A DNA stretch of 64,000 bases from Alphaproteobacteria bacterium (GCA_009779135.1 WREW01000002.1:78953-142952); one strand, 5' to 3'; shown: positions 2,659-53,515, counted from the first letter of the stretch. Numbers and translations are program-made. The notes: generated by a model not told the origin, from the sequence alone.

Positions 2659-4122
2659 ATGACGTCAAAATCAATCATCCAGTCGGACAGTGACGACATA
2701 CAGAATCCTGAGATGATTGACTCTCCTTCTTTAAACGAAAAACCGATCAGCCTGTGGGGCGATCTGCGCGAAAAACTCCGCGACCGTCTTGGTGAGACTG
2801 TTTATCGCCGCTGGATCGAACCGGTTGAAGGAAAAGTCAGCAAAGAAGAAGGCGGACAGCTTTCCCTTTCCATTATTGTACCGACACCTTTTATGTGCGA
2901 CTGGATTAAAGCGCATTACGGCGATGTGATCCGCATGTTCTGGCATAAGCTCGGCGGACAGGGTGATGTGGGTTTTGTGATTGACTCGCCTCTGGCCCGC
3001 GCGGCGCGTACCGTTGTCGTGCAGCAAAAGACTCCGGTGCCGGTGGCCGCGCCAAAAGATGAGGCTGAAGCTTTTCCCGCCAATGTTAATGCGAATATTT
3101 TTGAAGCCGCGCTTGATCCGCGTTTCACTTTTGACAATTTCGTTGTCGGCAAAACCAATGAGCTTGCTTACGCCGCAGCGCGCCGCGTGGCGGATACGGA
3201 AACGCCGACTTTCAATCCTTTGTTTCTGTATGGCAAATCAGGGCTCGGCAAAACGCATTTAATGCATGCCATTGCTTGGCAGATCCGCCAGAACTTTCCC
3301 CATCGCCGCGTTATCTATATGTCGGCGGAGCGCTTTATGTACCAGTTTGTGCGCGCGCTGCGTTACAAAGATACGGTTTCGTTCAAGGAGCAATTCCGTT
3401 CGGTCGATGTGCTGATGATTGATGATGTCCAGTTTATCGGCGGCAAGGATACAACGCAGGAAGAGTTTTTCCATACCTTCAACGCGCTTGTGGATCGCAA
3501 CCGTCAGGTTATTGTCTCAGCCGACAAGTCGCCGCAGGATCTTGACCGCGTGGAAGAAAGACTCCGCTCGCGTCTGGGCTGGGGCTTGGTTGCGGATCTT
3601 CATCCCGCCAATTACGAGCTTCGTTTGGGCATTTTGCAAGCCAAGGCCGCCAAGCTCGGCTGCGTGGTGCCAGACAAGGTGATTGAGTTTCTGGGCCACA
3701 AGATCACCTCGAATGTGCGCGAGCTTGAAGGCGCGCTCAACAGGATTGTCGCCCATGCGCAGCTTGTGGGGCGGACGATCTCGCTTGAAATGACGCAGGA
3801 GGTTTTGACGGATGTCCTGCGCTCGACAGAGCGGCGCATCACGATTGATGAAATCCAAAAGAAAGTGGCGGAGCATTATAATATCCGCGTGGCCGACATG
3901 CATTCGGCAAGACGCTCCCGCGCGGTGGCAAGGCCTCGGCAGGTGGCGATGTATCTGGCCAAACAGCTTACGCCCCGCAGCCTTCCTGAAATAGGCCGCA
4001 AGTTCGGCGGGCGCGATCATACGACCGTTATTCATGCTGTTAGGAAAATTGAAGAGCTTGCCTCTTACGACACCAACTTCCGTGAGGATGTGGATTTGTT
4101 GCGCCGGTTGTTGCAGGGTTAA
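2659..4122 (+). CDS. dnaA: chromosomal replication initiator DnaA
   Basis: 487 aa; AAA+ Walker A GKSGLGKTHL, box VII, C-terminal DNA-binding domain. Confidence 0.95.
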   Translation: MTSKSIIQSDSDDIQNPEMIDSPSLNEKPISLWGDLREKLRDRLGETVYRRWIEPVEGKVSKEEGGQLSLSIIVPTPFMCDWIKAHYGDVIRMFWHKLGGQGDVGFVIDSPLARAARTVVVQQKTPVPVAAPKDEAEAFPANVNANIFEAALDPRFTFDNFVVGKTNELAYAAARRVADTETPTFNPLFLYGKSGLGKTHLMHAIAWQIRQNFPHRRVIYMSAERFMYQFVRALRYKDTVSFKEQFRSVDVLMIDDVQFIGGKDTTQEEFFHTFNALVDRNRQVIVSADKSPQDLDRVEERLRSRLGWGLVADLHPANYELRLGILQAKAAKLGCVVPDKVIEFLGHKITSNVRELEGALNRIVAHAQLVGRTISLEMTQEVLTDVLRSTERRITIDEIQKKVAEHYNIRVADMHSARRSRAVARPRQVAMYLAKQLTPRSLPEIGRKFGGRDHTTVIHAVRKIEELASYDTNFREDVDLLRRLLQG

Positions 4123-8382: not shown

Positions 8383-8961
8383 ATGATTTCAAAGCCTTTT
8401 TACCGCAGAATGCGCGGTTTTACACTGACCGAAGCGGCTATTGTCCTTGGTGTTGTCGGTGTTCTTTTGGCTGCCATATGGGTGGCCGCGGCGGCTTTGT
8501 ACAGCAGCTCGCGCATATCCACCTCAGGAAAACAGATTTTGCAGATTGCGCAGGCAACACGCGTTATGCATGCTCTGACTCAGTCCGTAGATCCGGCGCT
8601 TACGGCTGCGGATCTGGCCAAGGCCGGCGCTATCCCGAGGGATCTGGTTCAGACCTCCACAGATCCGATCCAGATCATCAATATCTGGGATGGCGCGGTG
8701 GAGGTGGTCGCCGCCAATCACCAGAGCGGCCCCAATCGCGCTTTTACCGTGACTTTCAAGAAGGTTCCGCGTGAGGCGTGCTCCCAGCTTCTTATGTGGC
8801 AAACGGGCAGGGACCGCGATCCGGGCCTTTTTGAGGCCGGCGCCAATGGCGTGCTTTTGGCGGAGATGCCCACTTCGTTGACTGAGGTCAATTCCATCTG
8901 CAACAAGCTCCCCACTGAGGGGTATAATGAGGTATTTTTTACTTTTTCTTTGAAGGTTTGA
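8383..8961 (+). CDS. type IV pilin / pseudopilin-like protein
   Basis: short basic leader ending in G followed by FTLTEAAIVLGVVGVLLAAIW (prepilin peptidase cleavage/methylation motif); no pilus assembly genes nearby. Confidence 0.6.
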   Translation: MISKPFYRRMRGFTLTEAAIVLGVVGVLLAAIWVAAAALYSSSRISTSGKQILQIAQATRVMHALTQSVDPALTAADLAKAGAIPRDLVQTSTDPIQIINIWDGAVEVVAANHQSGPNRAFTVTFKKVPREACSQLLMWQTGRDRDPGLFEAGANGVLLAEMPTSLTEVNSICNKLPTEGYNEVFFTFSLKV

Positions 8962-9010: not shown

Positions 9011-9014
9011 GGTA

Positions 9015-9397
9015 GGCCAGATGGTCTGTAAGCCGGATTTTGTCTCTTTTCAGAGGACGGCCATTCATCTAGGCGGGATGTTGCCATCGCCGCTCATGCG
9101 ACCTACCCGAACCTGCCTGCCGTGACGAAAGCGGCTTTTGGTCTAGCCAAAAATGCGGTTCCTGTTTGGTCTTGCTCCCGATGGGGTTTTCCAGCCCTTT
9201 ATGTTGCCATAAAGGCGGTGCGCTCTTACCGCACCTTTTCACCCTTGCCGTGCCTGAAAGCGCGGCGGTTTTACTTTTCTGTGGCACTTTCCCTGGGGTC
9301 GCCCCCGCCGGCCATTAACCGGCATCGTTTCGTCTGGAGTCCGGACTTTCCTCTCCCTTAGCCAAAGGCAAGGCAGCGGCCATCCGACCATCTGGTT
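9015..9397 (-). ncRNA. rnpB: RNase P RNA, bacterial type A
   Basis: read on the minus strand: P1 helix ccagatggtc/gaccatctgg; P4 signature GGAAAGUCCGGACUCCA; AGGGAAAGUGCCACAGAAA; GGUAAGAGCGCACCGC; ACAGAACCCGGCUUA-like 3' region. Confidence 0.8.
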
Positions 9398-9588: not shown

Positions 9589-10674
9589 ATGACATCCTTA
9601 CGCACACTCCGCCTTGCTGCGGCTACGATCGCGCTTTTGGCGCCTCTTTCCGCGCATGCGGCTGTTCCCGATGGCTGGTATCTCGGCGCCAACGGGAATC
9701 TTGGTTTTCAAAACACGGCTGACAGCAAGCTGGATGGCGAAACCAACAAGGTCGGCTTTAGAACAGGCTGGGGTGTCGGCGGTTATGGCGGCTACGGTCT
9801 GGGCAACGGCATCCGCGTAGAGGGTGAAGTCGCTTACCGCAATTCGCAAGTTAACAAGGTTACGGGCGTAGGTGCCGGTACAGCCGGTGGCGGTATCCGC
9901 AACACAGCCCTGATGGGCAATGCGCTGTATGAGTATGATACGCGCACACGCATTACGCCCTATATCGGCGCCGGTGCTGGTGTTTCCTTTGTGAAGGCGA
10001 ACAACATGCGCACCATCAATACGGCTGAGATTCGCAGCAAAAAAACAGCTTTTGCCTATCAAGGGATTGCCGGTTTTGCTCTCAATCTTGAAGGCGGATG
10101 GGACTTTACGGCTGATTACCGCTATTTCGCCACGCCTGACGTGAAGTTCAAGGCCGACACGGGCGGACGGGCGACAACGGAGAACTCATCGCACAATTTG
10201 ATGCTCGGCATTCGCTATGTCTTTGACCGGCCCAGAGCGCCTGAGCCACGGGTGGAGGAACCTGTTCCTATGCCACCGCCGCCTCCGGCTGTGACTATGC
10301 CTGTGCCTCAACCGGTGATGGCACCGGCTGTTGCGCCGATTCCGCAGAATTACATGGTCTTTTTTGACTTTGACAAATCCGTTATCACGGCTGAGGCCGA
10401 GCGGATTATCGCCTCTGCGGCTGAAAGCTTCCGTGCCGGTAACTATGTCCGCCTGATTGTAACGGGGCACACGGATACGATGGGCACGGCCAGATATAAC
10501 CAAGCTCTTTCCGAGCGCCGTGCTGCTGCCGTCAAGGCCGCTTTCATACGCCACGGCATTCCGGCGAGCGATATTACACCCAGAGGTGTCGGAAAGAACG
10601 AACTTATGATCCCGACAGCCGATCAAGTGCGTGAAGCTCAAAACCGCCGCGCTGAAATCGTGATGCAAAGGTAG
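9589..10674 (+). CDS. OmpA-family outer membrane protein (beta-barrel plus Pro-rich linker plus OmpA C-terminal domain)
   Basis: signal peptide; Gly-rich beta-barrel N-terminal half; PPPP linker; OmpA peptidoglycan-binding motif NQALSERRA...RRAEIV. Confidence 0.8.
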   Translation: MTSLRTLRLAAATIALLAPLSAHAAVPDGWYLGANGNLGFQNTADSKLDGETNKVGFRTGWGVGGYGGYGLGNGIRVEGEVAYRNSQVNKVTGVGAGTAGGGIRNTALMGNALYEYDTRTRITPYIGAGAGVSFVKANNMRTINTAEIRSKKTAFAYQGIAGFALNLEGGWDFTADYRYFATPDVKFKADTGGRATTENSSHNLMLGIRYVFDRPRAPEPRVEEPVPMPPPPPAVTMPVPQPVMAPAVAPIPQNYMVFFDFDKSVITAEAERIIASAAESFRAGNYVRLIVTGHTDTMGTARYNQALSERRAAAVKAAFIRHGIPASDITPRGVGKNELMIPTADQVREAQNRRAEIVMQR

Positions 10675-10689
10675 ATTTTCGCAAAACGA

Positions 10690-10727
10690 AAAACGCCGCT
10701 CTGTCAAAAGAGCGGCGTTTTTTTTTG
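10690..10727 (+). terminator. rho-independent terminator
   Basis: aaaacgccgctct-gtcaaa-agagcggcg followed by a T9 run. Confidence 0.65.
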
Positions 10728-10825
10728 CCTTTTTACGGTAGAGCTTCTTGATTTTTCTTTAAAAATGAACAAACATAAAAGGAAGAAGGTTTGATTTAAA
10801 AGCCAATTTAAAGAAAGGAAATCTT

Positions 10826-11905
10826 ATGACCGACAAAACATGGGAAACGTTGTTTTTAGAAATGCGGGAAATTGCTGAACGGGGAAATGCCAAAGCGCAA
10901 TTTAATTTAGGTATCATGTATGCTACGGGTCAGGGCGTGAAACAGGATGATGCTCTGAACGTGAAATGGAATCGCAAGGCCGCCACGCAGGGATATTCCG
11001 ATGCGCAATTTAATTTAGGCTGCATGTATTTTGAAGGCCTTGGCGTAAAGCAAAACTCTGTTCAGGCCATGAAATGGTGGAATCGGGCGGCCAAGCAGGG
11101 ACATGCTGAAGCGCAGCACAATTTAGGAAATGCGTATGCCGAGGGCAAAGATGTAGCGCAAGATTACGGCAAGGCCGCAAAATTGTGGCTCAAAGCGGCT
11201 GAACAGGGCGTTGCTAACGCACAGGTCTCTTTAGGCGGGTGCTATGCCAGTGGTCAGGGTGTAGAGCAAAATTATGCGCATGCGGCAGCATGGTGGAGTC
11301 TGGCGGCTGAGCGAGGACATCCTGCCGCTCAATATCATTTCGGCATTTTGTATGCCAGCGGCCAAGGCGTGCCGCAAGACCAGCACAAGGCGATAAAATG
11401 GATGATTCGCGCTGCCGAGCAGGGGCATGCTGAAGCACAGGCTGTTTTGTTTTTGGAAACGCAAAAAGATGCCCTGCAAGGGATTGACGACGCACAATGT
11501 GCGGTAGGCATGATGTATGCTCAAGGCCAAGGCGTGGCGAAAGACGAAGCGCAGGCCATAGCGTGGTGGCTCAAGGCCGCCGCGCAGGGAAATGCCGAAG
11601 CGCAATTTAATTTAGGCGGCAGCTATGCCAAAGGCTTTGGCGTGGAGCAAGACGACATCGAGGCAAAGAAATGGTTCCTTCAAGCTGCCGAGCAGGGACA
11701 TGGTGACGCGCAAGTTAATTTGGGTTTGATGTATATTCATGGTCGCGGCGGCCCGCAAGACGTACCTCAAGCCATGGATTGGTGGATCAAGGCTGCCGCG
11801 CAAGACCATCCTGTCGCGCTGAGCCTTATAAACAACCTTTTACATGCGCAACGTCCCGACTACGAACCCGATCAAAGCAAAGAATCTGATCTGCGCTACA
11901 ATTAA
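10826..11905 (+). CDS. Sel1-repeat (TPR-like) protein
   Basis: ~9 tandem 36-aa Sel1 repeats (AxxWxxKAAEQGxAxAQxNLGxMY); C-terminal tail RPDYEPDQSKESDLRYN. Confidence 0.8.
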   Translation: MTDKTWETLFLEMREIAERGNAKAQFNLGIMYATGQGVKQDDALNVKWNRKAATQGYSDAQFNLGCMYFEGLGVKQNSVQAMKWWNRAAKQGHAEAQHNLGNAYAEGKDVAQDYGKAAKLWLKAAEQGVANAQVSLGGCYASGQGVEQNYAHAAAWWSLAAERGHPAAQYHFGILYASGQGVPQDQHKAIKWMIRAAEQGHAEAQAVLFLETQKDALQGIDDAQCAVGMMYAQGQGVAKDEAQAIAWWLKAAAQGNAEAQFNLGGSYAKGFGVEQDDIEAKKWFLQAAEQGHGDAQVNLGLMYIHGRGGPQDVPQAMDWWIKAAAQDHPVALSLINNLLHAQRPDYEPDQSKESDLRYN

Positions 11906-12004
11906 GTCCTTCTTTAGAATAGGGGATTGTGGGGGTTTTCGGTTCTTTTGCTATCGTAAGGCGTGTGGTAGTCTAGTACAGACAATTTAAAGAAAGGAAA
12001 TCTT

Positions 12005-13303
12005 ATGACCGACAAAACAGAGAAAGAGCTGTTTTTAGAAACACAGAAAGCTGCCAAGCAGGGCGATGTTGAGGCGAAGTACAATTTAGGATACATGTAT
12101 TTTGCGGGTTATGGTGTGGAGCAAAACAGACCGACGGCTGTGAAATGGTGGCTTGAAGCGGCTGAACATGGAAATCATGCGATTGCACAACACAGCTTAG
12201 GTGTTGCCTATGATCGGGGCTATGGAGTACCGCAAGATCAAGAGCGGGCGCTGAAATGGTGGCTTTCGTCTGCTGAACAGGGATATGCGGATGCGCAATA
12301 TGCTGTTGGCTACGCATATATAAATGGGCTTGGCGTGAAACAGGATGATACTTTGGCTGTGAAATGGTATAGCAAGGCTGCTGAACAAGGATTTGCGGCG
12401 GCGCAATATGGTTTAGGCCGTATGTATTTTGAAGGCCGCGGCGTAAAGCAAGACGCTGCTCAGGCTGTGAAATTGTGGAGTCTGGCGGCCGAGCAAGGAT
12501 ATGATGATGCGCAAGTCACTTTAGGAAATGCATATGTCAAGGGCAGCGGCGTGAAAATAGATTACGACAAGGCCGTAAAATGGTGGCTTAAGTCTGCTGA
12601 GCAGGGAAACGTGAAATCACAGTTTTTGGTAGGCACTAGCTTTGTCACTGGTATGGGGGTGGAGCAAAATTATGCGCAGGCGGCAGTATGGTGGAGTTTG
12701 GCGGCTGAGCAGGGACATCCTTCTGCGCAATATGGTTTGGGTACTTTGTATGCCGATGGCCTTGGCGTACCGCAAGATAATCAGAAGGCGAGAAACTGGT
12801 GGGTTGCCGCTGCCGAGCAAGGGCATGTCGAAGCTCAGGAAGCTTTATTTTTGGAAGCACAAGATGACGCCATGAAGGGGATTGATGGCGCACAACATAC
12901 TTTGGGCTTGATGTACTACAGAGGCCAAGGCGTAGAAAAAGACGATGTTCAGGCCGTAGCGTGGTGGCACAAGGCTGCCGCGCAGGGACATGTCGAAGCG
13001 CAGCTTTGTTTAGGCGGCTGCTATGCCATGGGTCAGGGCGTGGCACAAGATAATGTCGAGGCCGCAAAATGGTTTCGCAAGGCGGCGGAACAGGGACATG
13101 ATCAAGGGCAGTATAATCTAGGCTTGATGTATATAAGTGGTCTGGGCGTGCCGCAAGATCCAAGCCAAGCCTTGGCTTGGCTGAACAAGGCTGCCGCGCA
13201 AAATAATGTTGACGCGCGGTTTTTTGTAAACAAGCTTTCAAATCCGTCACGGCCTGATTACGAGCCCGATCAAGGCAAAGAATCTGATCTGCGCTACAAT
13301 TAA
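12005..13303 (+). CDS. Sel1-repeat protein (tandem paralog of 10826..11905)
   Basis: same repeat architecture; identical 5' leader and near-identical C-terminal tail RPDYEPDQGKESDLRYN; conserved 3' flank. Confidence 0.8.
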   Translation: MTDKTEKELFLETQKAAKQGDVEAKYNLGYMYFAGYGVEQNRPTAVKWWLEAAEHGNHAIAQHSLGVAYDRGYGVPQDQERALKWWLSSAEQGYADAQYAVGYAYINGLGVKQDDTLAVKWYSKAAEQGFAAAQYGLGRMYFEGRGVKQDAAQAVKLWSLAAEQGYDDAQVTLGNAYVKGSGVKIDYDKAVKWWLKSAEQGNVKSQFLVGTSFVTGMGVEQNYAQAAVWWSLAAEQGHPSAQYGLGTLYADGLGVPQDNQKARNWWVAAAEQGHVEAQEALFLEAQDDAMKGIDGAQHTLGLMYYRGQGVEKDDVQAVAWWHKAAAQGHVEAQLCLGGCYAMGQGVAQDNVEAAKWFRKAAEQGHDQGQYNLGLMYISGLGVPQDPSQALAWLNKAAAQNNVDARFFVNKLSNPSRPDYEPDQGKESDLRYN

Positions 13304-13407
13304 GTCCTTCTTTAGAATAGGGACTTGCGGGGTTTTTCGGCTCTTTTGCTATCGCAAGGCGTGTGGTAGCTTTTATTTGTGAGATTCTTTTTTTGCTGCG
13401 GTCGCTT

Positions 13408-14094
13408 ATGTCCTTGTCTTATCGCCTGCATCATCATCCTCTTGATCCTGCTTCGCGGCGGGTGCGGTTGGCGATGGCCGAAAAGAAAATCCCCTTTGAA
13501 GCCATCGTTGAAAAACCATGGGATCCTCGGCCTGCTTTTTTGCAGCTTTCGCCGGACGGTGATGTGCCGGTTTTGGTTATCGAGGGCGCTCAGGACTCTT
13601 TCGTGCTGGCAAGCTCCAACGCTATTTGTGAATATTTTGAGGAAACAAGTGAAGCTCCCTCTTTGCTTGGCTCTGATGCGGCCACGCATGCCGAAGTGCG
13701 GCGGCTTGTTCACTGGTTTGAAGTTAAAATGTATCTGCAATGCACTGCGCTTATTCTCGGGGAAAAAGCCTATAAGCGCCTTGAGGGGCGCGGCGAGCCT
13801 GACAGTCATATTCTGCGCGCGGGTCACCACAATATTCACGGCCATCTTGAATATATCACATGGCTGACAGAGCAGCGCAACTGGCTTGCGGGGGATGCGA
13901 TAACTCTGGCTGATCTCGCCGCTGCCGCGCAGCTTTCTTGCATTGACTATGTCAATGACGTGCCTTGGGATCGCCATGTTCAGGCCAAGGAATGGTATGC
14001 GCGCATTAAATCGCGGCCTTGCTTCCGGTCTCTTCTCGGCGACCATGTTGCGGGGCTTATGCCACCCAAAAGTTACGCTGATCTTGACTTTTAA
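13408..14094 (+). CDS. glutathione S-transferase
   Basis: thioredoxin-like N-terminal domain (LHHHPLDPASRRVRLAMAEKKIPFE) and alpha-helical GST C-terminal domain. Confidence 0.75.
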   Translation: MSLSYRLHHHPLDPASRRVRLAMAEKKIPFEAIVEKPWDPRPAFLQLSPDGDVPVLVIEGAQDSFVLASSNAICEYFEETSEAPSLLGSDAATHAEVRRLVHWFEVKMYLQCTALILGEKAYKRLEGRGEPDSHILRAGHHNIHGHLEYITWLTEQRNWLAGDAITLADLAAAAQLSCIDYVNDVPWDRHVQAKEWYARIKSRPCFRSLLGDHVAGLMPPKSYADLDF

Positions 14095-14110
14095 CGAAAG
14101 GACTCTTGTC

Positions 14111-14833
14111 ATGACTTGTCGTCTTGTTCCTGCTTTGCTTTTTGTCTTCAGCCTTGTTTGCGTTTCTGCGCAGGCGCGGGATATCAGGCCCGATGATATT
14201 GTTTCTTTCGAACTTACCAAGGAAAGCTGGGTTTCAACCAAATCCGCGCTTGTGACTTTGGCTGTCAATGCTGCTGTCAGCGGCAATGATGCCGGTTCGA
14301 TGCGCAAAAACATGACGACGGCGATCAATAATGTCGTCAAGGCTGACTGGCGCTTGATCTCGTTTAACCGCAATCAGGATAATACGGGTCTGGAAAGATG
14401 GTTTGTCACTTATGAAGCGCGGCTTGAGGAAAGCGCTTTGAACTCTCTTGGCGAAAAGGCGCGCGGGGCCAGCAAGGCGGGCATGCAGATCACGGTGCAA
14501 AACATAGATTTCAGCCCTACTTTGGAAGAGCGTGAAGCTGCCAAGGCTGCCTTGCGTACCGCGATTTACAAAAGCGCCAAAGAACAGCTGGAGTTGTTAA
14601 ACTCTACTATTCCAGGACGCAATTATCGTATCTCCGCGATTAATTTTTCAGGCAGCGCAATGCCTATGATTGCCAACAAGATGATGATGGCGCGCGGGCC
14701 TATGGCCGTGATGGCTGCCGACAGCGGAAACTTTGCAGACCGCGCGCAGGCTCAGGAATCTATGGAGCGTTCAGAAAAGCTTGTCCTGCAAGCACAGATT
14801 CTTTTTGCCGCTTTGCCGCCTGAGTCAAAATAA
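14111..14833 (+). CDS. hypothetical periplasmic protein
   Basis: signal peptide MTCRLVPALLFVFSLVCVSAQA; no confidently recognised domain. Confidence 0.5.
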   Translation: MTCRLVPALLFVFSLVCVSAQARDIRPDDIVSFELTKESWVSTKSALVTLAVNAAVSGNDAGSMRKNMTTAINNVVKADWRLISFNRNQDNTGLERWFVTYEARLEESALNSLGEKARGASKAGMQITVQNIDFSPTLEEREAAKAALRTAIYKSAKEQLELLNSTIPGRNYRISAINFSGSAMPMIANKMMMARGPMAVMAADSGNFADRAQAQESMERSEKLVLQAQILFAALPPESK

Positions 14834-14846
14834 GAAAGGGTTGTCC

Positions 14847-15491
14847 ATGCTGACTGATGTTGTTTTAGAGCCTCTTGGCGGGCAAGAGGCCACGCGCGCT
14901 GTTATTATCCTTCATGGTCTTGGCGATAATGGTCAGGGCATTATGGGGCTTGGCGAGATGATGCGGATGGCCATGCCCAATACGGTTTTTCTTGCGCCGA
15001 ATGCGCCTTTTCCGTGCCCTTATGTGCCGGGCGGGTATCAGTGGTTTTCATCTGAGGATTGGACGCCGCATATCATATTGCAAGGCGCGCAAAAGGCAGC
15101 CGCGCCTTTGAATGAATATATCGATCATATTCTTGAGACGCGTAAACTTGCGCCCTCGCAAGTGGCGCTGGTCGGATTTTCTCAAGGCACGATGATGAGT
15201 CTTTACGTCGCCCCGCGCCGCGCAGAGGCTTTGGCGGGTGTGCTTGGCTATTCCGGTGCTTTAATCGGCGGGACTTCGCTGGCGCAGGAGAAAAAATCCG
15301 CGCCGCCTGTTCTTTTGATTCACGGCACAAGTGATGAAGTCGTTCCTTTCAAGGCTATGAACAACGCGCTCGAAGGGCTGAAAGCCGCAGGAATCGAAGC
15401 CAGCGCAATGGCATGTCCGGGCCTTGGGCATACGGTTGACAATGATGGGCTGCGGCAGGGGGTGGCGTTTTTGAAGAGGGTTTTGGGGTAG
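14847..15491 (+). CDS. alpha/beta hydrolase, phospholipase/carboxylesterase family
   Basis: ILHGLGDNG ... GFSQGTMMS (GxSxG nucleophile elbow) ... IHGTSDEVVP ... GHTV catalytic His. Confidence 0.7.
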   Translation: MLTDVVLEPLGGQEATRAVIILHGLGDNGQGIMGLGEMMRMAMPNTVFLAPNAPFPCPYVPGGYQWFSSEDWTPHIILQGAQKAAAPLNEYIDHILETRKLAPSQVALVGFSQGTMMSLYVAPRRAEALAGVLGYSGALIGGTSLAQEKKSAPPVLLIHGTSDEVVPFKAMNNALEGLKAAGIEASAMACPGLGHTVDNDGLRQGVAFLKRVLG

Positions 15492-15495
15492 GGGG

Positions 15496-17364
15496 ATGAC
15501 AAACAAAAAAATTATTGCGCTCTGCGACAAGTTTTTCTCGTTCGTGGCCGAGGTTTTTACACCCGTGGGCTATTTTTGCTTTCTCGTGGTTTATCTTTTT
15601 GTGCTCGCGGTTATGATTCTTTTGCTCGGGATTGTGCTTTCGAGTTTGGCGCTTGACCTCAACAACAAGGTGCCATTCCTGCCTGTTAAAATACAAAAAA
15701 CTCTTGAGGAAGGACGTACTGCCGTACCTGTCATTTTCGGCAATATGTATCTGGAAGGTTCTATCGTACCGCAAGACGATGCCATGGCGGTGAAACTGTT
15801 TCATATGGCGGCTAAGCTGGGGCATGTTGATTCACAAATCTTTTTAGGCATAAGGTATTATAACGGCGAAGGCGTGCCGCAAGACTACGCTCAGGCGGCA
15901 GAATGGTATCTCAAAGCGGCTGAACAGGAATGTGCTGACAAGCATAATATATGCGCTAGTTTGCCGATCAAGTTAGGCGAGATGTATTATGACGGCAAAG
16001 GCGTGCCGCAAGATTACGGTCAGGCGGCAAAATGGTATCTCAAAGCGGCTGAACAGGAATGTACTGACAATCATGACGAGGAATGTACTAATCTGCTGAC
16101 CAGATTAGGCGATATGTATGCCAAGGGCCTCGGCGTGCCGCAAGATGATGCTCAGGCTGCAGCATGGGTGCGCAAGGCGACTGAGCCGGCGGAACGGTTG
16201 CGCAAGGCGGCTGAAGAGGAGGCGGAACGATTGCGCAAGAAGGCTGAGGAGGGAAATGCTGACGCGCAGTACCGTTTAGGCAGTATGTATGCGGAAGGGC
16301 GCGGCGTGCCGAAAGACGAAGTTCAGGCGGCGGCATGGTATCACAAGGCCGCTGAGGGGGGACATGCTCTTGCACAGATCACCTTAGGCGAGATGTATCT
16401 AAAAGGTTTTATCGTACCGAAAGACGAAGCCATGGCGGTAGAGATGTTTCGCAAGGCAGCTGAGCAGGGGAGGACGCATATACAAATCAGATTAGGCAAG
16501 ATGTATTATTATGGCAAAGGCGTGCCGCAAGACTACGTTCAGGCGGCAGCATGGTATCGCAAGGCGGCTGAGCAGGGGAAGGAGGAGGCACAAATCAGAT
16601 TAGGCGATATGTATGCTGAGGGCCTCGGCGTGCCGCAAGATTACGAGCAGGCGGAAGAATGGTATAGCAAGGCAGCTGAGCAGGAGGAGGATGGGTGGGT
16701 ACAAATCAGGATAGGCGATATGTATGCTACTAAGGGCCGCAACGTGCCGCCAGACTATGTTCGGGCGGTGGCATGGTATCGCAAAGCGGCTGAGCAGGGA
16801 GAAGATCTGGCACAAATCAGGCTAGGCGATATGTATGCTAAGGGCCTCGGTGTGCCGCAAGACTACGAGCAGGCGTCAGCATGGTATCGCAAGGCGGCTG
16901 AGGCGGGAGATTCTTATGGAAAGTACAAGCTAGCCGTTATGTATGTTACAGGCCGTGGTATGCCGCAAGACAAAGCTCAGGCGGCAGTGTTCTATTACAA
17001 AATAGCTGAAGAGTGGGTGCATGAGGAAAACTTCTCTCAAGGCGATCGGTATTATTATGGCCACCGCGATATGCCGCCAGATCACGTTCAGGCGGCGGTA
17101 TGGTATCGCAAGGCTGCTGAGGCGGGACATGCTCTTGCGCAGATCATGTTAGGCAACATGTATGCTGAAGGCCTCGGCGTTCCACAAGATGAAGCTCAGG
17201 CGGAGGCATGGCGCAGCAAGGGTTGCGAGGGATTGCGTAAGGGTGACGACTCGCCGGATAAACTCTTTGTACTTGGTTACAAATCTCGTGTCGTTCGAGA
17301 TCCTGACCTTCGCACCATTATAATTCCTTCTTTTGAAATGCGCGAGAAGTACTGTAGCCCGTAG
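15496..17364 (+). CDS. membrane-anchored Sel1-repeat protein
   Basis: N-terminal transmembrane helix; more than 12 Sel1 repeats; central charged coiled coil ERLRKAAEEEAERLRKKAEE. Confidence 0.75.
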   Translation: MTNKKIIALCDKFFSFVAEVFTPVGYFCFLVVYLFVLAVMILLLGIVLSSLALDLNNKVPFLPVKIQKTLEEGRTAVPVIFGNMYLEGSIVPQDDAMAVKLFHMAAKLGHVDSQIFLGIRYYNGEGVPQDYAQAAEWYLKAAEQECADKHNICASLPIKLGEMYYDGKGVPQDYGQAAKWYLKAAEQECTDNHDEECTNLLTRLGDMYAKGLGVPQDDAQAAAWVRKATEPAERLRKAAEEEAERLRKKAEEGNADAQYRLGSMYAEGRGVPKDEVQAAAWYHKAAEGGHALAQITLGEMYLKGFIVPKDEAMAVEMFRKAAEQGRTHIQIRLGKMYYYGKGVPQDYVQAAAWYRKAAEQGKEEAQIRLGDMYAEGLGVPQDYEQAEEWYSKAAEQEEDGWVQIRIGDMYATKGRNVPPDYVRAVAWYRKAAEQGEDLAQIRLGDMYAKGLGVPQDYEQASAWYRKAAEAGDSYGKYKLAVMYVTGRGMPQDKAQAAVFYYKIAEEWVHEENFSQGDRYYYGHRDMPPDHVQAAVWYRKAAEAGHALAQIMLGNMYAEGLGVPQDEAQAEAWRSKGCEGLRKGDDSPDKLFVLGYKSRVVRDPDLRTIIIPSFEMREKYCSP

Positions 17365-17402
17365 GGTTTTAGGTTAGACACATGACACAGGAAGGGAATC
17401 TT

Positions 17403-18305
17403 ATGCGTTACGTCTCACGCTTTATGCTTATGGTTGTGACTTTGTGTTTGCTGCCCGGGTATGCTGTTGCAGTGGAATCATCTTATTTGGAATCACAAAA
17501 AAAAGCTGCTGAGCAGGGCGATGCCATGGCACAGTTCAAGCTAGCAGATACATATTTTTCTGGTCGTGGCGGTGTGCCGGCAGACGAATCTCAAGCGGCG
17601 GTATGGTATCACAAAGCTGCCGATCAGGGGCTTGCTCTAGCACAATTCAAGTTAGGCTTTATGTATTTTGAGGGCCGCGGCGTGCCAAAAGACGAAGTTC
17701 AGGCGGCGAAATGGTATCGCAAAGCGGCTGAGCAGGGGTATCGGAAGGCACAGAACGAGTTAGGTCATATGTATTATTATGGCCGTGGCGTAGCGCAAGA
17801 CTACGTCAAGGCGGTGGAATGGTATCGCAAAGCAGCGGAGCAGGGATATAATCATACCAGATTAGGCCATATGTATGCTGAGGGCCTCGGCGTGCCGCAA
17901 GATGATGACCAGGCGGTGGCGTGGTATCTCAAAGGGCTTGAGAAGGCGAATGAAGACTCGATGTATGTTTTAGGAACTATGTATTATCATGGTACGCCTT
18001 CTAATGCTATGCATAATTATATTAACGGCAAAAATGCGCATACTGACAACGATGTGCGGAAAGACTATGCTAAAGCGGCAATATGGACTCGCAAGGCTGC
18101 TGAGCGGGGATATGCTCCTGCGCAGTTTAGATTAGCCCATATGTATGCTGATGGTCTTGGCGTTCCACAAGATGAAGCTCAGGCGGAAGCATGGCATAAC
18201 AAGGGCTGCGCCTTGTCGCGTGAATCCAGCGACCGTACAATTGTCAATAGTGGACGCGCTCACCAATGTGACAGGAATACACCTTGTTTGAAGCACCTGA
18301 GGTAA
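17403..18305 (+). CDS. secreted Sel1-repeat protein
   Basis: signal peptide; Sel1 repeats. Confidence 0.75.
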   Translation: MRYVSRFMLMVVTLCLLPGYAVAVESSYLESQKKAAEQGDAMAQFKLADTYFSGRGGVPADESQAAVWYHKAADQGLALAQFKLGFMYFEGRGVPKDEVQAAKWYRKAAEQGYRKAQNELGHMYYYGRGVAQDYVKAVEWYRKAAEQGYNHTRLGHMYAEGLGVPQDDDQAVAWYLKGLEKANEDSMYVLGTMYYHGTPSNAMHNYINGKNAHTDNDVRKDYAKAAIWTRKAAERGYAPAQFRLAHMYADGLGVPQDEAQAEAWHNKGCALSRESSDRTIVNSGRAHQCDRNTPCLKHLR

Positions 18306-18327
18306 ATGACACAGAGAAGGGAATCTT

Positions 18328-18840
18328 ATGCGTTACGTTTTCCTCCTTATGCTTGTAACTATGTGTTTTCTGTCTGGACGCGCTATTGCGCATCTTCCAT
18401 CCGGAGCGCAAGATTTTGATTTGAGTTTTGGGGTGCCGCAGGATGATGCTCAGGCGATGGAGTGGTGGCATAGATCTGCGGCGCGGAATGCTGGGGTGGA
18501 GAATCTTTTTGGGTGGGGAGCGTTGCCGGAAGATGATGTTCGGGCGGTGGCACGGTTGCGTAAGGCGGCTGATGAGGGGCAGGCCAGTGCGCAATTTCTT
18601 TTAGGCACGATGTATGCGGATGGTCGCGGAGTGCCGCAGGATGATGAGCTGGCGATTGTGTGGTGGAGCAAGGCTGCTGCCAAGGGCGATGCCGGCGCGC
18701 AGACTAATTTAGGTATAAGTTATTTTAATGGTCTCGGCATGCCGCAGGATCAGCAGAAGGGTTGCGACTTGTTGCGGGAAGCTGGTGAGCAGGGGTTTGC
18801 TCCTGCTGTTGGGATTTATGGGAGGCTTTGTAATCCATAG
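18328..18840 (+). CDS. small secreted Sel1-repeat protein
   Basis: signal peptide; 3-4 Sel1 repeats. Confidence 0.65.
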   Translation: MRYVFLLMLVTMCFLSGRAIAHLPSGAQDFDLSFGVPQDDAQAMEWWHRSAARNAGVENLFGWGALPEDDVRAVARLRKAADEGQASAQFLLGTMYADGRGVPQDDELAIVWWSKAAAKGDAGAQTNLGISYFNGLGMPQDQQKGCDLLREAGEQGFAPAVGIYGRLCNP

Positions 18841-18863
18841 AACATGGCGTTTTTCCCCTTTAT

Positions 18864-18966
18864 GTCATCCTCGGGCAACCGCAAAGCGGTTGAACCGGGG
18901 ATCTGACGTTAGCACCTAGCTTCAGATCCCCGGGCTCTTGCTTCGCAAGCCCCGAGGATGACAAGA
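18864..18966. repeat. family-2 palindromic miniature repeat (gtcatcctcgg ... ccgaggatgac), copy a
   Basis: ~100 bp imperfect palindrome; further copies at 38405 and 39394, plus a fragment at 55156. Confidence 0.7.
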
Positions 18967-18972
18967 GGAAGC

Positions 18973-19542
18973 TTAATGCAAAATCCTCCGCGCTGGCGGG
19001 AAGAAGGCCGTCCAGAAGGCGAAGATGCTTAGGGCAAGTGATAAGAAAATATTTCCGTTGGCGATGGTCATGCCGAAAAAGAGGGGCTCGCGGACATCGC
19101 AGGGGACAACTGGCGTGTTCATGATGGCGTTGCGGATGGATTCAACGCTTGCGTCCTGCGATGCGAAAAGATTTGGGTTAACGCCGCACAGGTCGGTTTG
19201 CGCCCACCAGTGGAACTCGACACCCGTGTGGTAGATAGCGATTCCGGTGTTAATCAAAAAAGCAGCCGCGCACAAAGCCAGAAAGAAGCGCCCGATTTTA
19301 TGGCGGCGATCCACACCGCTGTATGACGTCACTACATGCGCGACTATGGCAAGCGCCGTCAAAATAACCGCTACGGCAAAGGGAACACGCTGGTAAAGGC
19401 ACAGAGCGCAAGGCTGGACGGAAAAGAAAAATTGCAGGATATAGGCCGAAGCCATAGAAAGCGCGCTGGCCGTAAAGATCACCAGAGCGGCCCAAGGCAT
19501 CGAAAAGATTTTCCGGTAAAGATTAAGTATGATCCTGACCAT
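18973..19542 (-). CDS. dsbB: disulfide bond formation protein B-like
   Basis: 4-TM protein with the PCALCLYQR periplasmic-loop Cys pair motif. Confidence 0.65.
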   Translation of the reverse strand: MVRIILNLYRKIFSMPWAALVIFTASALSMASAYILQFFFSVQPCALCLYQRVPFAVAVILTALAIVAHVVTSYSGVDRRHKIGRFFLALCAAAFLINTGIAIYHTGVEFHWWAQTDLCGVNPNLFASQDASVESIRNAIMNTPVVPCDVREPLFFGMTIANGNIFLSLALSIFAFWTAFFPPARRILH

Positions 19543-52187: not shown

Positions 52188-53507
52188 TTATTCCGGTGTG
52201 AGCTTGGGGATGGGGACTGTGACTGTGCTCTTGCTGGGCCTTTGTGCTTCTTCTTCTTTTATGCTTTCATTGGCGCGTATAGCCGGTTTAAATGCGGGAT
52301 TATTCGCTTCCGGATCGTCCTTATACCAATAGTAAGTCTTATTCCATGAATCTCTGGCATCCCCTTTTGGCACGTCGTCGCCAAGCGCGGCGTCTTTTAA
52401 ATCTTTGATCTGTTCCGGCGTCAGACTATGTGTGCTTGCTATAAGACCGGCTATGCGATGGCACGTTTTATCCGGAAGTTTTTCAAAACCGTTGTCTTTG
52501 AGTTCTTTCAATATCGCTTGCTTTTCCTGATCGTCGAAGGTAGGCTTATCGGCCTCGATTATGTTATAGCCCTTCTTGTTATTGTATTCTTCTTGAAGTC
52601 CAGAAAGGATTTTATCAACCCTGTCCCATTTTTTATGTTTAGCTTGTATACAAAAATCTTTCGTTACCGACAGGCTTTTATAGGCGTTGTAAGCTATAAA
52701 GTTGTCAGCCTTATCGGCAGCATTCGGATCGCTGTAGAGCTTGTTTCTAAAATTGTAAGTTGAACGCAGGATTCCATCTTCTGCTACTCCTAAGGTACTT
52801 ACGCCTAATTGCTCCATTTTAATCATGGCGTAAGATTCTGCCATATTTTCCTTGTGATTTGTTCGGAGGGACTGGAGCATTGCAGGCGTATTTTTATCGA
52901 TGTCGCCTGTAGGAGCATAAAAAACATTTAAGAAAGGATTGATCGTCTTATCCTGTCCGTCTATTTGTGTTGGAACCGACTGGGTTAAATGGCCAACCTC
53001 GTGAAACAGCGTCTGAATATTTTTCTTATCTACGACAACAACGCTGGTTCGATCTGAAAAGGGATTATCCTCAACCGAAGTTCCTAAAAAAGGTGTGGAA
53101 CGATAGTTTCCAATTGAAGTGCAAAAACCGCCCAAGTTTTTTTCTTCGACTTCAAGCAACGCGGCTGAAAGGCGGTTAATCTTGCCTTCCGCTATGGGAG
53201 CATTTGAGTTTTTTAGAACCTTGCTAAATCCATCATGTGACGGTTTTTCACCCTTCAAAGCTTCTTTTATTTTGCCATAGTCAAGAAAGACAACTTCTTG
53301 CCCTATCATCTTTTCCGTTTCGCCTTTATTCCGAAAGACTTCATTGACAGCTCTGCTCCATTCGGGGTTTTTATCAGGGAAGATCAGGATATCGTGAAGG
53401 GGGGCTTTTTCTGCAAGGGAAGGCGTTGCCAACAGCGTTGCCGAGGCCACCGCAAGGGCTGCCGATTTGATGCTTTTGGTTGCCATAGGTTTATCGTCGT
53501 TTTCCAT
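52188..53507 (-). CDS. family-X secreted HExxH protein, paralog B
   Basis: signal peptide; FHEVGHL; ENMAESYAMIKMEQLG; C-terminal ...STVTVPIPKLTPE; begins 8 bp after the paralog C stop. Confidence 0.7.
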   Translation of the reverse strand: MENDDKPMATKSIKSAALAVASATLLATPSLAEKAPLHDILIFPDKNPEWSRAVNEVFRNKGETEKMIGQEVVFLDYGKIKEALKGEKPSHDGFSKVLKNSNAPIAEGKINRLSAALLEVEEKNLGGFCTSIGNYRSTPFLGTSVEDNPFSDRTSVVVVDKKNIQTLFHEVGHLTQSVPTQIDGQDKTINPFLNVFYAPTGDIDKNTPAMLQSLRTNHKENMAESYAMIKMEQLGVSTLGVAEDGILRSTYNFRNKLYSDPNAADKADNFIAYNAYKSLSVTKDFCIQAKHKKWDRVDKILSGLQEEYNNKKGYNIIEADKPTFDDQEKQAILKELKDNGFEKLPDKTCHRIAGLIASTHSLTPEQIKDLKDAALGDDVPKGDARDSWNKTYYWYKDDPEANNPAFKPAIRANESIKEEEAQRPSKSTVTVPIPKLTPE

Positions 53508-53515
53508 GGCCTAGG

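What the first reader, a model, noticed from the sequence alone, without database searches (positions are those of the whole stretch)
10800..18840. Sel1-repeat protein array with a recent tandem duplication and a conserved acidic C-terminal tail
Five Sel1/TPR-like proteins lie within 8 kb, interrupted only by a GST, a periplasmic protein and an esterase. Genes 10826..11905 and 12005..13303 are a tandem duplicate: they share the same 5' leader aatttaaagaaaggaaatcttATGaccgacaaaaca, a near-identical ~75-bp 3' flank, and a near-identical tail RPDYEPDQ(S/G)KESDLRYN. The invariant Glu/Asp-rich tail could be a secretion or targeting signal; C-terminal signals are known for T4SS effectors. One member is membrane-anchored and two carry Sec signal peptides. 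Sel1 expansions are typical of bacteria that interact with eukaryotic cells.
Basis: partly seen in the sequence, partly recalled or inferred. Interest (0 to 1): 0.55.

Follow-up and report, generated by a model that had tools for sequence, protein, structure and literature searches.

The report
Sel1-repeat gene cluster with old duplicate
An uncultured alphaproteobacterium carries a local cluster of five ordinary Sel1-repeat (protein-binding solenoid) genes; two are an old tandem duplicate sharing a short, floppy, mildly acidic tail that occurs in no other known protein, and nothing shows that the tail is a secretion signal.

Summary
The sequence features are real. Five Pfam-confirmed Sel1-repeat genes lie in 10826-18840, interrupted by a GST, a SIMPL/DUF541 periplasmic protein and an esterase.

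g1 (10826-11905) and g2 (12005-13303) are tandem duplicates, but not recent ones. Their bodies are 61% identical in protein and 75% in DNA, with dS about 0.6. Only the ends are near-identical:
- 37 nt spanning the ribosome-binding site and start codon;
- about 116 nt spanning the tail and the 3' flank.

The duplication junction falls between the terminator stem and its T-run, so g1-g2 read as one operon.

The 17-residue tail is predicted to be disordered. Its first five codons carry four synonymous and no replacement changes, which points to selection on the peptide. The remainder is identical at the DNA level to 21 nt past the stop codon, which points to gene conversion.

The tail matches nothing in 5.8 billion proteins or 1.84 billion cluster representatives. 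No relative carries the array. No T1SS, T2SS or T4SS gene lies in the 84 kb I could read. The tail's net charge of -2 is the opposite of VirB/D4-type signals.

Verdict: an ordinary lineage-specific expansion of Sel1 paralogues. The secretion-signal idea is unsupported but not excluded.

The parts
10688..10733 (+). Intrinsic terminator of the upstream ompA-like gene. It marks the left edge of the g1-g2 transcription unit.
   Evidence: 15-bp stem followed by a T-run. OmpA/OMP_b-brl domains at 9589-10674.
10805..10841 (+). Conserved leader, copy 1: 21 nt holding the ribosome-binding site, then ATG and the MTDKT codons. It is the left boundary of duplication unit 1.
   Evidence: 37/37 nt identical to 11984-12020, with no similarity upstream of it. 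GGAAATCTTATG motif.
10826..11905 (+). g1: Sel1-repeat protein, 359 aa, 8 repeats (5 + 3, separated by a longer cap-like helix at residues 202-217). No signal peptide.
   Evidence: Pfam Sel1 E = 2.7e-77. AlphaFold2 pLDDT 94, alpha-solenoid over residues 1-341. No hydrophobic N-terminus.
11852..11902 (+). g1 C-terminal tail, RPDYEPDQSKESDLRYN (residues 343-359).
   Evidence: pLDDT falls to 62 and then 45, so it is predicted disordered. 16/17 residues identical to the g2 tail.
11906..11972 (+). Conserved 3' flank, copy 1. It ends in the terminator-type hairpin (11950-11972) but has no T-run, so read-through into g2 is expected.
   Evidence: 6/66 mismatches to copy 2. The hairpin appears in the folds. 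The scan calls no terminator here.
11984..12020 (+). Conserved leader, copy 2. It is the left boundary of duplication unit 2 and lies 11 nt after unit 1.
12005..13303 (+). g2: Sel1-repeat protein, 432 aa, 10 repeats (7 + 3). It is a paralogue of g1 with two extra N-terminal repeats (73 aa). No signal peptide.
   Evidence: Pfam Sel1 E = 5.4e-102. 61% identity to g1 over 343 aa without gaps. dS 0.60.
13250..13300 (+). g2 C-terminal tail, RPDYEPDQGKESDLRYN.
13304..13380 (+). Conserved 3' flank, copy 2, ending in a complete intrinsic terminator (stem 13348-13370 followed by TTTTATTTGT).
   Evidence: Terminator scan. Fold at -23.2 kcal/mol.
13408..14094 (+). Glutathione S-transferase. A conserved backbone gene, not part of the Sel1 family.
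   Evidence: Pfam GST_N_2, GST_N_3 and GST_C. A 71%-identical orthologue sits next to a SIMPL gene in a related MAG that has no Sel1 genes.
14111..14833 (+). SIMPL/DUF541 periplasmic protein with a signal peptide.
   Evidence: Pfam SIMPL. Hydrophobic N-terminus.
14847..15491 (+). Abhydrolase_2 carboxylesterase/phospholipase-family enzyme.
   Evidence: Pfam PF02230, E = 2.3e-38.
15496..17364 (+). g3: Sel1-repeat protein, 622 aa, 13 repeats. It has an N-terminal membrane anchor (about residues 23-53) and a Cys pair in its C-terminal cap.
   Evidence: Pfam Sel1 E = 9.7e-116. KD 3.37 at residue 34; Cys577 and Cys620. 53% identical to g4.
17403..18305 (+). g4: Sel1-repeat protein, 300 aa, with a Sec-type signal peptide (MRYVSRFMLMVVTLCLLPGYAVA).
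   Evidence: Pfam Sel1 E = 6.1e-57. The start at 17403 follows the shared leader GAAGGGAATCTTATG and agrees with the ENA gene call.
18328..18840 (+). g5: short Sel1-repeat protein, 170 aa, with a Sec-type signal peptide and a C-terminal Cys pair.
   Evidence: Pfam Sel1 E = 1.8e-26. Leader shared with g4 (D14). Cys146 and Cys168.
18973..19542 (-). DsbB, convergent neighbour. It could supply the disulfides of the g3-g5 caps, but that link is inferred only.
   Evidence: Pfam DsbB E = 4.6e-26.

Best explanation
This is a lineage-specific expansion of Sel1-like-repeat (SLR) paralogues in an uncultured alphaproteobacterium. It was built by at least two local duplications, g1/g2 and g3/g4(/g5), inserted around conserved backbone genes close to the replication origin.

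SLR proteins are alpha-helical solenoids that bind partner proteins. From their N-termini, g3 is anchored in the inner membrane, g4 and g5 are exported by Sec, and g1 and g2 stay in the cytoplasm.

g1 and g2 are an OLD tandem duplicate. The copied unit ran from 21 nt before the ATG to the terminator stem. g1 therefore lost the T-run, and the two genes are transcribed as one operon that ends at g2's intact terminator.

The bodies have diverged freely (dS about 0.6, and two repeats gained or lost). The two ends have stayed alike through a mixture of two processes:
- short gene-conversion tracts, which explain the nucleotide identity running 21 nt past the stop codon and the 91% identity of the non-coding flank;
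- purifying selection on the ribosome-binding region and on the front of the tail.

The tail is a 17-residue disordered extension beyond the C-terminal capping helix. I read it as a short linear docking motif for an unknown partner.

Shown: gene family, architecture, age of the duplication, mosaic conservation, operon signals, disorder of the tail, absence of the tail elsewhere.
Inferred: gene conversion, cellular locations, and any role of the tail.
For: - Pfam Sel1 in all five genes.
- The closest solved relatives are generic SLR proteins: EsiB 4BWR at 9e-104, Sel1 proteins 6OK3, 8SXQ and 6ORK, and HcpC 1OUV.
- The AlphaFold2 solenoid has pLDDT 94, with the tail at 62 falling to 45.
- g1/g2 are 61% identical without gaps, with dS 0.60 and dN 0.26.
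- The ends form a mosaic: a 37-nt identical leader, a 48-nt identical run (p = 0.0004), the 3' block at 10/116 mismatches against 259/982 (p = 6e-6), and the non-coding flank at 9% divergence against 30% at third codon positions (p = 2e-4).
- The RPDYE codons carry 4 synonymous and 0 replacement differences. P = 0.004, given that only 25% of changed body codons are synonymous. The preceding linker is only 4/13 identical.
- A terminator is called after g2 only; the same hairpin follows g1 without a T-run.
- Paralogue pairs: g1-g2 61%, g3-g4 53%, all other pairs about 37-42%. The leader motif is restricted to g1, g2, g4 and g5.
- No Sel1 genes lie beside the GST orthologues in 3 relatives or beside lepA in 80 relatives with 72-82% LepA identity.
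- The organism is known only as MAGs. The best GyrB match is 83%, to another MAG; the best cultured match is 70%.
Against: - Gene conversion is inferred from two sequences. With no outgroup, I cannot separate conversion from nucleotide-level constraint on the 3' block.
- The peptide-selection test on RPDYE is post hoc and rests on five codons.
- At the protein level, 16/17 identities is the maximum but not an outlier. Two windows in the body reach 15/17.
- No partner for the tail is known. The AlphaFold2 run was a monomer prediction and reports only pLDDT, not contacts.
- Cellular locations are read from N-terminal hydrophobicity and the -3/-1 rule, not from a trained predictor.
- Operon status rests on pattern scans, not on transcripts.
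Confidence: 0.6

Rival explanations
1. The tail has no function of its own. The likeness of both gene ends is purely a by-product of recent gene conversion between tandem paralogues, and the tail is a neutral disordered appendage.
For: From codon P348 to 21 nt past the stop there is a 48-nt identical run and only one difference in 58 nt. The non-coding flank is 91% identical. Protein-level selection cannot explain identity in non-coding DNA. The tail is absent from every other protein searched.
Against: The first five tail codons (RPDYE) are as diverged at synonymous sites as the body, yet carry no replacement change (P = 0.004). They therefore lie outside the conversion tract and are still conserved as a peptide. 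The adjacent linker has diverged freely (4/13 identical).
Confidence: 0.2
2. One reading: the tail is a C-terminal export or translocation signal (T4SS, or T1SS) that sends the leaderless g1 and g2 out of the cell, perhaps into a eukaryotic host.
For: - g1 and g2 lack Sec signals.
- The tail is C-terminal, disordered and partly under purifying selection.
- KESDLRYN loosely resembles one Legionella E-Block-derived query motif, 'EKSxDLqn' (PMC3096851).
- SLR proteins occur among Dot/Icm substrates; Coxiella CBU0295 is one (PMC3102713).
- A DUF736 gene past glmS hints at a mobile element further along the contig.
Against: - No secretion-system gene lies in the 84 kb read.
- The tail has only 2 Glu, so it is not a Glu-rich E Block as defined in PMC3096851.
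- Dot/Icm systems are, to my knowledge, characteristic of Legionellales rather than Alphaproteobacteria.
- VirB/VirD4 signals are positively charged or hydrophobic (PMC11098119). This tail is net -2.
- The T1SS composition test does not discriminate: LDAVTSIF is 48% and 46%, but KHPMWC is 24% and 18%, which is not 'poor'.
- No other protein in the reachable sequence or in the public databases carries the tail.
Confidence: 0.1
3. The conserved 3' block is an RNA element. It would be a 3'-UTR-derived small RNA or an anti-Shine-Dalgarno sequence (UCCUUCUUUA) that pairs with the conserved leader (UAAAGAAAGGA) and couples or represses translation of g1 and g2. That would explain why both ends are conserved at the nucleotide level.
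For: Conservation continues into non-coding DNA up to a terminator hairpin. By eye, a 12-bp helix with one bulge can be drawn between the flank and the leader.
Against: - Folds of the g1-g2 intergenic region are no more stable than shuffles (z = -0.35, -0.21 and +0.54), and the same holds for the flanks (z from -1.9 to +0.7).
- The flank-leader duplex is -14.4 kcal/mol against a shuffle mean of -14.35, with 45% of shuffles as good.
- At least eight other gene leaders in the window pair better with the flank.
- Rfam finds nothing here at gathering thresholds.
Confidence: 0.05
4. The array is a set of immunity or adaptor proteins for a lipase/esterase toxin, as with the tandem periplasmic Sel1-type immunity proteins recalled from my own knowledge beside the Pseudomonas PldB T6SS effector. 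Alternatively it is part of an anti-phage defence system.
For: An Abhydrolase_2 'phospholipase/carboxylesterase' gene sits directly before the exported g3-g5 genes.
Against: - The esterase is a small (214 aa) housekeeping-type enzyme.
- The esterase has no hydrophobic N-terminal segment that I could see in its sequence, and there are no T6SS genes within 84 kb.
- PADLOC gives only weak partial hits to a PtuA N-terminus, with no scored stretch except one in g3.
Confidence: 0.03

Closest known systems
EsiB (E. coli CFT073 c5321; PDB 4BWR) and other generic bacterial Sel1-like-repeat proteins (PDB 6OK3, 8SXQ, 6ORK)
   Same: This is the best sequence match among solved structures (E = 8.8e-104 for g1). 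Both are tandem 36-residue Sel1 repeats forming an alpha-solenoid, which the AlphaFold2 model supports.
   Different: The match reflects the shared repeat, not orthology. g1 and g2 carry a 17-residue disordered acidic tail that no other protein searched has. g1 and g2 have no signal peptide.
Helicobacter cysteine-rich proteins (Hcp family, e.g. HcpC, PDB 1OUV)
   Same: They are a paralogue family of SLR proteins within one genome and are detectably similar (E = 9.3e-23). g3-g5 are exported and have a Cys pair in the last repeat.
   Different: Hcp proteins have a disulfide-forming Cys pair in every repeat (my own knowledge). Here g1 has 3 Cys and g2 has 2, and g3-g5 have only scattered Cys plus a terminal pair.
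Legionella and Coxiella SLR virulence proteins (LpnE, EnhC, LidL; Coxiella Dot/Icm substrate CBU0295)
   Same: They are SLR proteins used at the host interface. One of them is a proven Dot/Icm substrate (PMC3102713).
   Different: Those organisms are Gammaproteobacteria with a Dot/Icm system. No such system was seen here, the tail is not Glu-rich, and no host association is shown for this MAG.
ExoR, MotX, AlgK and MerG (named SLR families in NCBIfam)
   Same: All five proteins hit these models through the shared repeat. g4 resembles ExoR in size and in being periplasmic.
   Different: Every score is far below the curated cut-off. ExoR reaches at most 108 against 450, MotX at most 119 against 330, AlgK at most 105 against 700, and MerG at most 207 against 350. 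None of the five is a member.

Membership tests
Sel1-like repeat (SLR) proteins, Pfam PF08238 | Multiple tandem matches to the 36-residue Sel1 model, with the whole-protein score above the gathering cut-off (30.7 bits) | tested here: met
   Scores of 252.9, 331.1, 374.6, 188.5 and 92.0 bits, with 8, 10, 13, 5 and 2 repeats.
Sel1-like repeat (SLR) proteins, Pfam PF08238 | Helix-turn-helix repeats stacked into an alpha-solenoid | tested here: met
   AlphaFold2 model of g1: 19 regularly spaced helices over residues 6-341, mean pLDDT 94.
ExoR (NF045484), periplasmic regulator of ExoS/ChvI | Score at or above the equivalog cut-off of 450 bits | tested here: not met
   Best score 107.9 bits (g3); g4 scores 59.9.
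MotX (NF047621), AlgK (NF038194), MerG (NF033786) | Score at or above the curated cut-offs of 330, 700 and 350 bits | tested here: not met
   Maxima of 119.4, 104.8 and 207.5 bits.
Helicobacter cysteine-rich protein (Hcp) family | A conserved Cys pair in each repeat (feature recalled from my own knowledge) | tested here: not met
   Cys positions: g1 at 66, 139, 225; g2 at 335, 339; g4 (mature protein) at 269, 289, 295; g5 at 146, 168.
Dot/Icm (type IVB) translocated substrates | A Glu-rich 'E Block' of 6-8 residues near the C-terminus (PMC3096851) | tested here: not met
   The last 17 residues hold 2 Glu and 3 Asp. There is only a loose likeness of KESDLRYN to the query motif EKSxDLqn.
Dot/Icm (type IVB) translocated substrates | A Dot/Icm apparatus in the same genome | not testable with these tools
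   Only 84 kb of one 172-kb contig could be read. It holds no dot/icm gene.
VirB/VirD4 (type IVA) effectors | [quoted passage not shown] | tested here: not met
   The tail has 5 acidic and 3 basic residues, net -2.
Type I secretion substrates | The last 50 residues enriched in LDAVTSIF and poor in KHPMWC (Delepelaire 2004, as quoted in PMC3417381) | tested here: inconclusive
   LDAVTSIF is 48% and 46%, inside the quoted 38-56% range. KHPMWC is 24% and 18%, which is not poor. The criterion is weak.
Recent tandem gene duplicate | Near-identity along the whole unit, with low dS | tested here: not met
   Body DNA identity 0.755, dS 0.60. Only the 37-nt 5' segment and the 116-nt 3' segment are near-identical.

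The most novel reading that the evidence does not exclude
The 17-residue tail RPDYEPDQxKESDLRYN is a new, lineage-restricted C-terminal export or targeting tag. It would take two leaderless Sel1-repeat proteins out of the cytoplasm of an uncultured alphaproteobacterium, by a T4SS, a T1SS or an unknown route, to act on another cell. The near-identical gene ends would then be kept by selection as a conserved expression and export frame around a freely diversifying binding surface.
Probability: 0.1. Interest if true: 0.5.

Novelty: new member of a known kind. Interest (0 to 1): 0.2.

Why it matters
As it stands, little. Local expansions of Sel1 repeats are common, and these proteins match the family model without any new domain.

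The finding is useful in three modest ways:
- It is a clean small example of how a tandem duplicate can look recent at its ends while being old in its body.
- It shows how a duplication junction inside a terminator can fuse two copies into one operon.
- It supplies a candidate short linear motif in a poorly sampled alphaproteobacterial lineage.

If the tail proved to be an export tag, it would give a handle for finding effectors in uncultured bacteria. Nothing here shows that.

Tried and rejected
1. Full-length g2 against 5.8 billion proteins. The result was swamped by generic long Sel1 proteins (best 51% identity, no orthologue), so it could not test tail conservation.

2. Tail-only searches:
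- A 45-residue alignment found no candidate sharing three 5-residue words.
- Exhaustive HMMER over 1.84 billion representatives gave one hit, a spurious low-complexity repeat protein.
- The degenerate DNA pattern found nothing in JGI metagenomes.
- Caveat: g1, g2 and g3 are themselves missing from the protein collection, so these searches cannot return self-hits.

3. Synteny. GST-anchored loci in GTDB genomes and 80 lepA-anchored metagenome loci show no Sel1 genes and almost no conserved gene order. A clean insertion-site comparison was therefore impossible.

4. RNA-structure and anti-SD explanation for the conserved 3' block. Rejected: the fold z-scores are not significant, and the duplex energy equals the shuffle mean.

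5. Named SLR families (ExoR, MotX, AlgK, MerG). All are far below their cut-offs.

6. Defence system or T6SS immunity array. There is no support from PADLOC or from gene context.

7. Two look-ups failed because I trimmed the wrong end of minus-strand genes. I repeated them correctly.

8. Taxonomy by GyrB. Only unnamed MAGs are close (at most 83%), and the best cultured hit is Azospirillum at 70%. Lifestyle remains unknown.

Full report
**What is there.**
The window is part of a 172-kb metagenome contig (ENA ERZ27257295, k141_1655050). The same sequence is deposited at NCBI as an 'Alphaproteobacteria bacterium' MAG.

The window spans the replication-origin region:
- dnaA lies at 2659-4122.
- RNase P RNA lies at 9013-9395 on the minus strand.
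- A flagellar cluster occupies about 24-35 kb.
- ccrM and trcR are present, as expected for an alphaproteobacterium.

GyrB is at most 83% identical to other MAGs, and 70% to the best cultured hit, an Azospirillum. Lineage and lifestyle are therefore unknown.

**Checking the observation.**
ORF listing and Pfam confirm five Sel1-repeat genes.

| Gene | Coordinates | Length | Scored repeats |
|---|---|---|---|
| g1 | 10826-11905 | 359 aa | 8 |
| g2 | 12005-13303 | 432 aa | 10 |
| g3 | 15496-17364 | 622 aa | 13 |
| g4 | 17403-18305 | 300 aa | 5 |
| g5 | 18328-18840 | 170 aa | 2 |

Between g2 and g3 lie a GST, a SIMPL/DUF541 protein with a signal peptide, and an Abhydrolase_2 esterase.

- g3 has a strongly hydrophobic N-terminal segment.
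- g4 and g5 have short signal-peptide-like N-termini ending AVA and AIA.
- g1 and g2 have no hydrophobic N-terminus.

The quoted leader is exact, 37 identical nucleotides (10805-10841 = 11984-12020).

**'Recent' is wrong.**
g1 residues 17-359 align to g2 residues 90-432 without a gap, but at only 61% identity.
- At the DNA level the bodies are 75.5% identical, with dS 0.60 and dN 0.26, evenly along the gene.
- g2 has 73 extra N-terminal residues, which is two repeats.

Against this background the ends stand out:
- The longest identical run is 48 nt (11877-11924), with permutation p = 0.0004.
- The block 11856-11971 has 10/116 mismatches against 259/982 elsewhere (Fisher p = 6e-6).
- The non-coding flank has 6/66 mismatches, against 30% at third codon positions (p = 2e-4).

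**Anatomy of the duplication.**
Similarity begins abruptly 21 nt before each ATG and ends at ...GGCGTGTGGTAG. This is the 3' arm of a 9-bp hairpin.
- After g2 the hairpin is followed by TTTTATTTGT, and the scan calls it a terminator.
- After g1 the same hairpin is followed by 11 unrelated nucleotides and then the g2 leader, and no terminator is called.

The duplication junction therefore lies between the terminator stem and its T-run. The simplest reading is that g1-g2 form one transcript, running from downstream of the ompA terminator (10688-10733) to the g2 terminator.

**The tail.**
AlphaFold2 gives a confident solenoid (pLDDT 94) ending in a capping helix at residues 329-341. The tail (343-359) falls to pLDDT 62 and then 45, so it is predicted disordered.

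Codon by codon, the tail splits into two parts.
- R-P-D-Y-E carries four synonymous and no replacement differences. In the body only 25% of changed codons are synonymous, so P = 0.004. The linker just before it is only 4/13 identical. This front part is as old as the body but is conserved as a peptide.
- From P348 onward the DNA is identical to 21 nt past the stop codon, apart from the S/G change. The flank then stays 91% identical. Protein-level selection cannot explain identity in non-coding DNA.

I therefore infer a short gene-conversion tract, or nucleotide-level constraint, on top of some selection on the peptide.

I tested an RNA explanation, in which the 3' flank acts as an anti-Shine-Dalgarno sequence or small RNA pairing with the conserved leader. 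It failed:
- The folds are no better than shuffles.
- The duplex energy equals the shuffle mean.
- Other gene leaders in the window pair better with the flank.

**Is the tail found elsewhere?** No.
- None of the 120 best Sel1 homologues has it.
- No protein among 5.8 billion shares three 5-residue words with the last 45 residues.
- Exhaustive HMMER over 1.84 billion cluster representatives returned only a spurious repeat protein.
- A degenerate DNA pattern for the tail has no match in JGI metagenomes.
- g3, g4, g5 and a sixth Sel1 gene about 3 kb left of the window lack it.

One caveat applies. g1, g2 and g3 are themselves absent from the protein collection, so absence of self-hits means nothing. 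Absence of any other hit still stands.

**Relatives.**
- The GST has a 71%-identical orthologue in a related MAG. It sits next to the SIMPL gene but has no Sel1 genes, and two more distant loci also lack them.
- Eighty metagenome loci with LepA 72-82% identical show no Sel1 gene within up to 10 kb of lepA.

The array is thus specific to this lineage. No orthologue exists against which tail conservation or copy number could be compared.

**Family structure.**
- g1-g2 (61%) and g3-g4 (53%) are the only close pairs. All other pairs sit at about 37-42%, the same level as Sel1 proteins from unrelated organisms.
- g4 and g5 share their own leader and signal-peptide start.
- The 12-nt motif GGRAATCTTATG occurs four times in 64 kb, only at g1, g2, g4 and g5 (0.02 expected).
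- g3, g4 and g5 end in Cys-containing caps (KGC...C), and dsbB is the convergent neighbour. A link between them is only an inference.
- No named SLR family (ExoR, MotX, AlgK, MerG) is reached.
- The closest solved structure is EsiB.

**The secretion-signal idea.**
In the 84 kb I could read (the window plus 10 kb on each side) there is no T1SS, T2SS, T4SS or T6SS gene. The only export machinery is the flagellar apparatus.

- T4SS signals of the VirB/VirD4 type are positively charged or hydrophobic (PMC11098119). The tail is net -2.
- Legionella E Blocks are Glu-rich stretches of 6-8 residues (PMC3096851). The tail has two Glu.
- KESDLRYN has a loose likeness to one query motif, EKSxDLqn. I treat this as a lead only.
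- The T1SS composition rule does not discriminate.

The idea is unsupported. It is not refuted either, because about half of the contig and the rest of the genome are out of reach.

**Verdict.**
This is an ordinary, lineage-specific cluster of Sel1-repeat paralogues. It contains an old tandem duplicate whose ends have been kept alike, most likely by gene conversion plus selection on the ribosome-binding region and on part of a disordered C-terminal motif. I score it as a new member of a known kind, of low interest.

The most novel reading still open is that the tail is a new export tag. I give that about 10%.

Noticed in passing
window 18862-18958: A long imperfect palindrome lies between g5 and the convergent dsbB. 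The outer arms are CATCCTCGGG...CCCCGAGGATG and the inner arms are CCGGGGATCTGA...TCAGATCCCCGG. It may be a bidirectional terminator or a REP-like element.
   Followed up: no
L007 12976-14656 (contig, about 3 kb left of window position 1): A sixth Sel1 gene (176 aa, no tail) overlaps the start of a 385-aa orphan with a lipoprotein-like N-terminus. Both lie between a tRNA-editing gene and gyrB. The reachable 84 kb therefore holds six Sel1 genes.
   Followed up: partly
window 59570-60859 (+) and 62006-63106 (-): Two divergent orphan paralogues (27% identity, E = 1e-25) with no Pfam family flank bamD/YfiO. One contains an HELCH (HExxH-like) string.
   Followed up: partly
L009 1-1440 (contig position about 150.6-152 kb, right of the window): A DUF736 gene and two small orphans lie directly past glmS. 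This is the classic Tn7-type insertion site, and from my own knowledge DUF736 often marks conjugative elements in Alphaproteobacteria. It may be the edge of an integrated mobile element that could carry a T4SS.
   Followed up: no
window 52188-55063 (-): Two adjacent large ORFs (439 and 515 aa) with no Pfam hit lie next to the ccrM methyltransferase gene.
   Followed up: no
window 11426-11500 and 12824-12898 (g1 residues ~201-225, g2 residues ~274-298): Each of g1 and g2 has an internal 19-residue insertion...LFLE(T/A)Q..., between repeats. It resembles the N-terminal cap of g2 (MTDKTEKELFLETQK). AlphaFold2 models it as one longer helix (residues 202-217). It may be a relic of a fusion of two shorter Sel1 modules.
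   Followed up: partly
window 8383-8961 (+): A PilS-domain (type IV pilin-like) gene lies between lpxC and the RNase P RNA gene.
   Followed up: no
g1, g2, g3 (window 10826-17364): These three proteins are missing from the 15-billion-protein cluster collection and have no precomputed Pfam entry. Their neighbours g4 and g5 are present. This is a technical gap that limits what the protein searches on them can show.
   Followed up: yes
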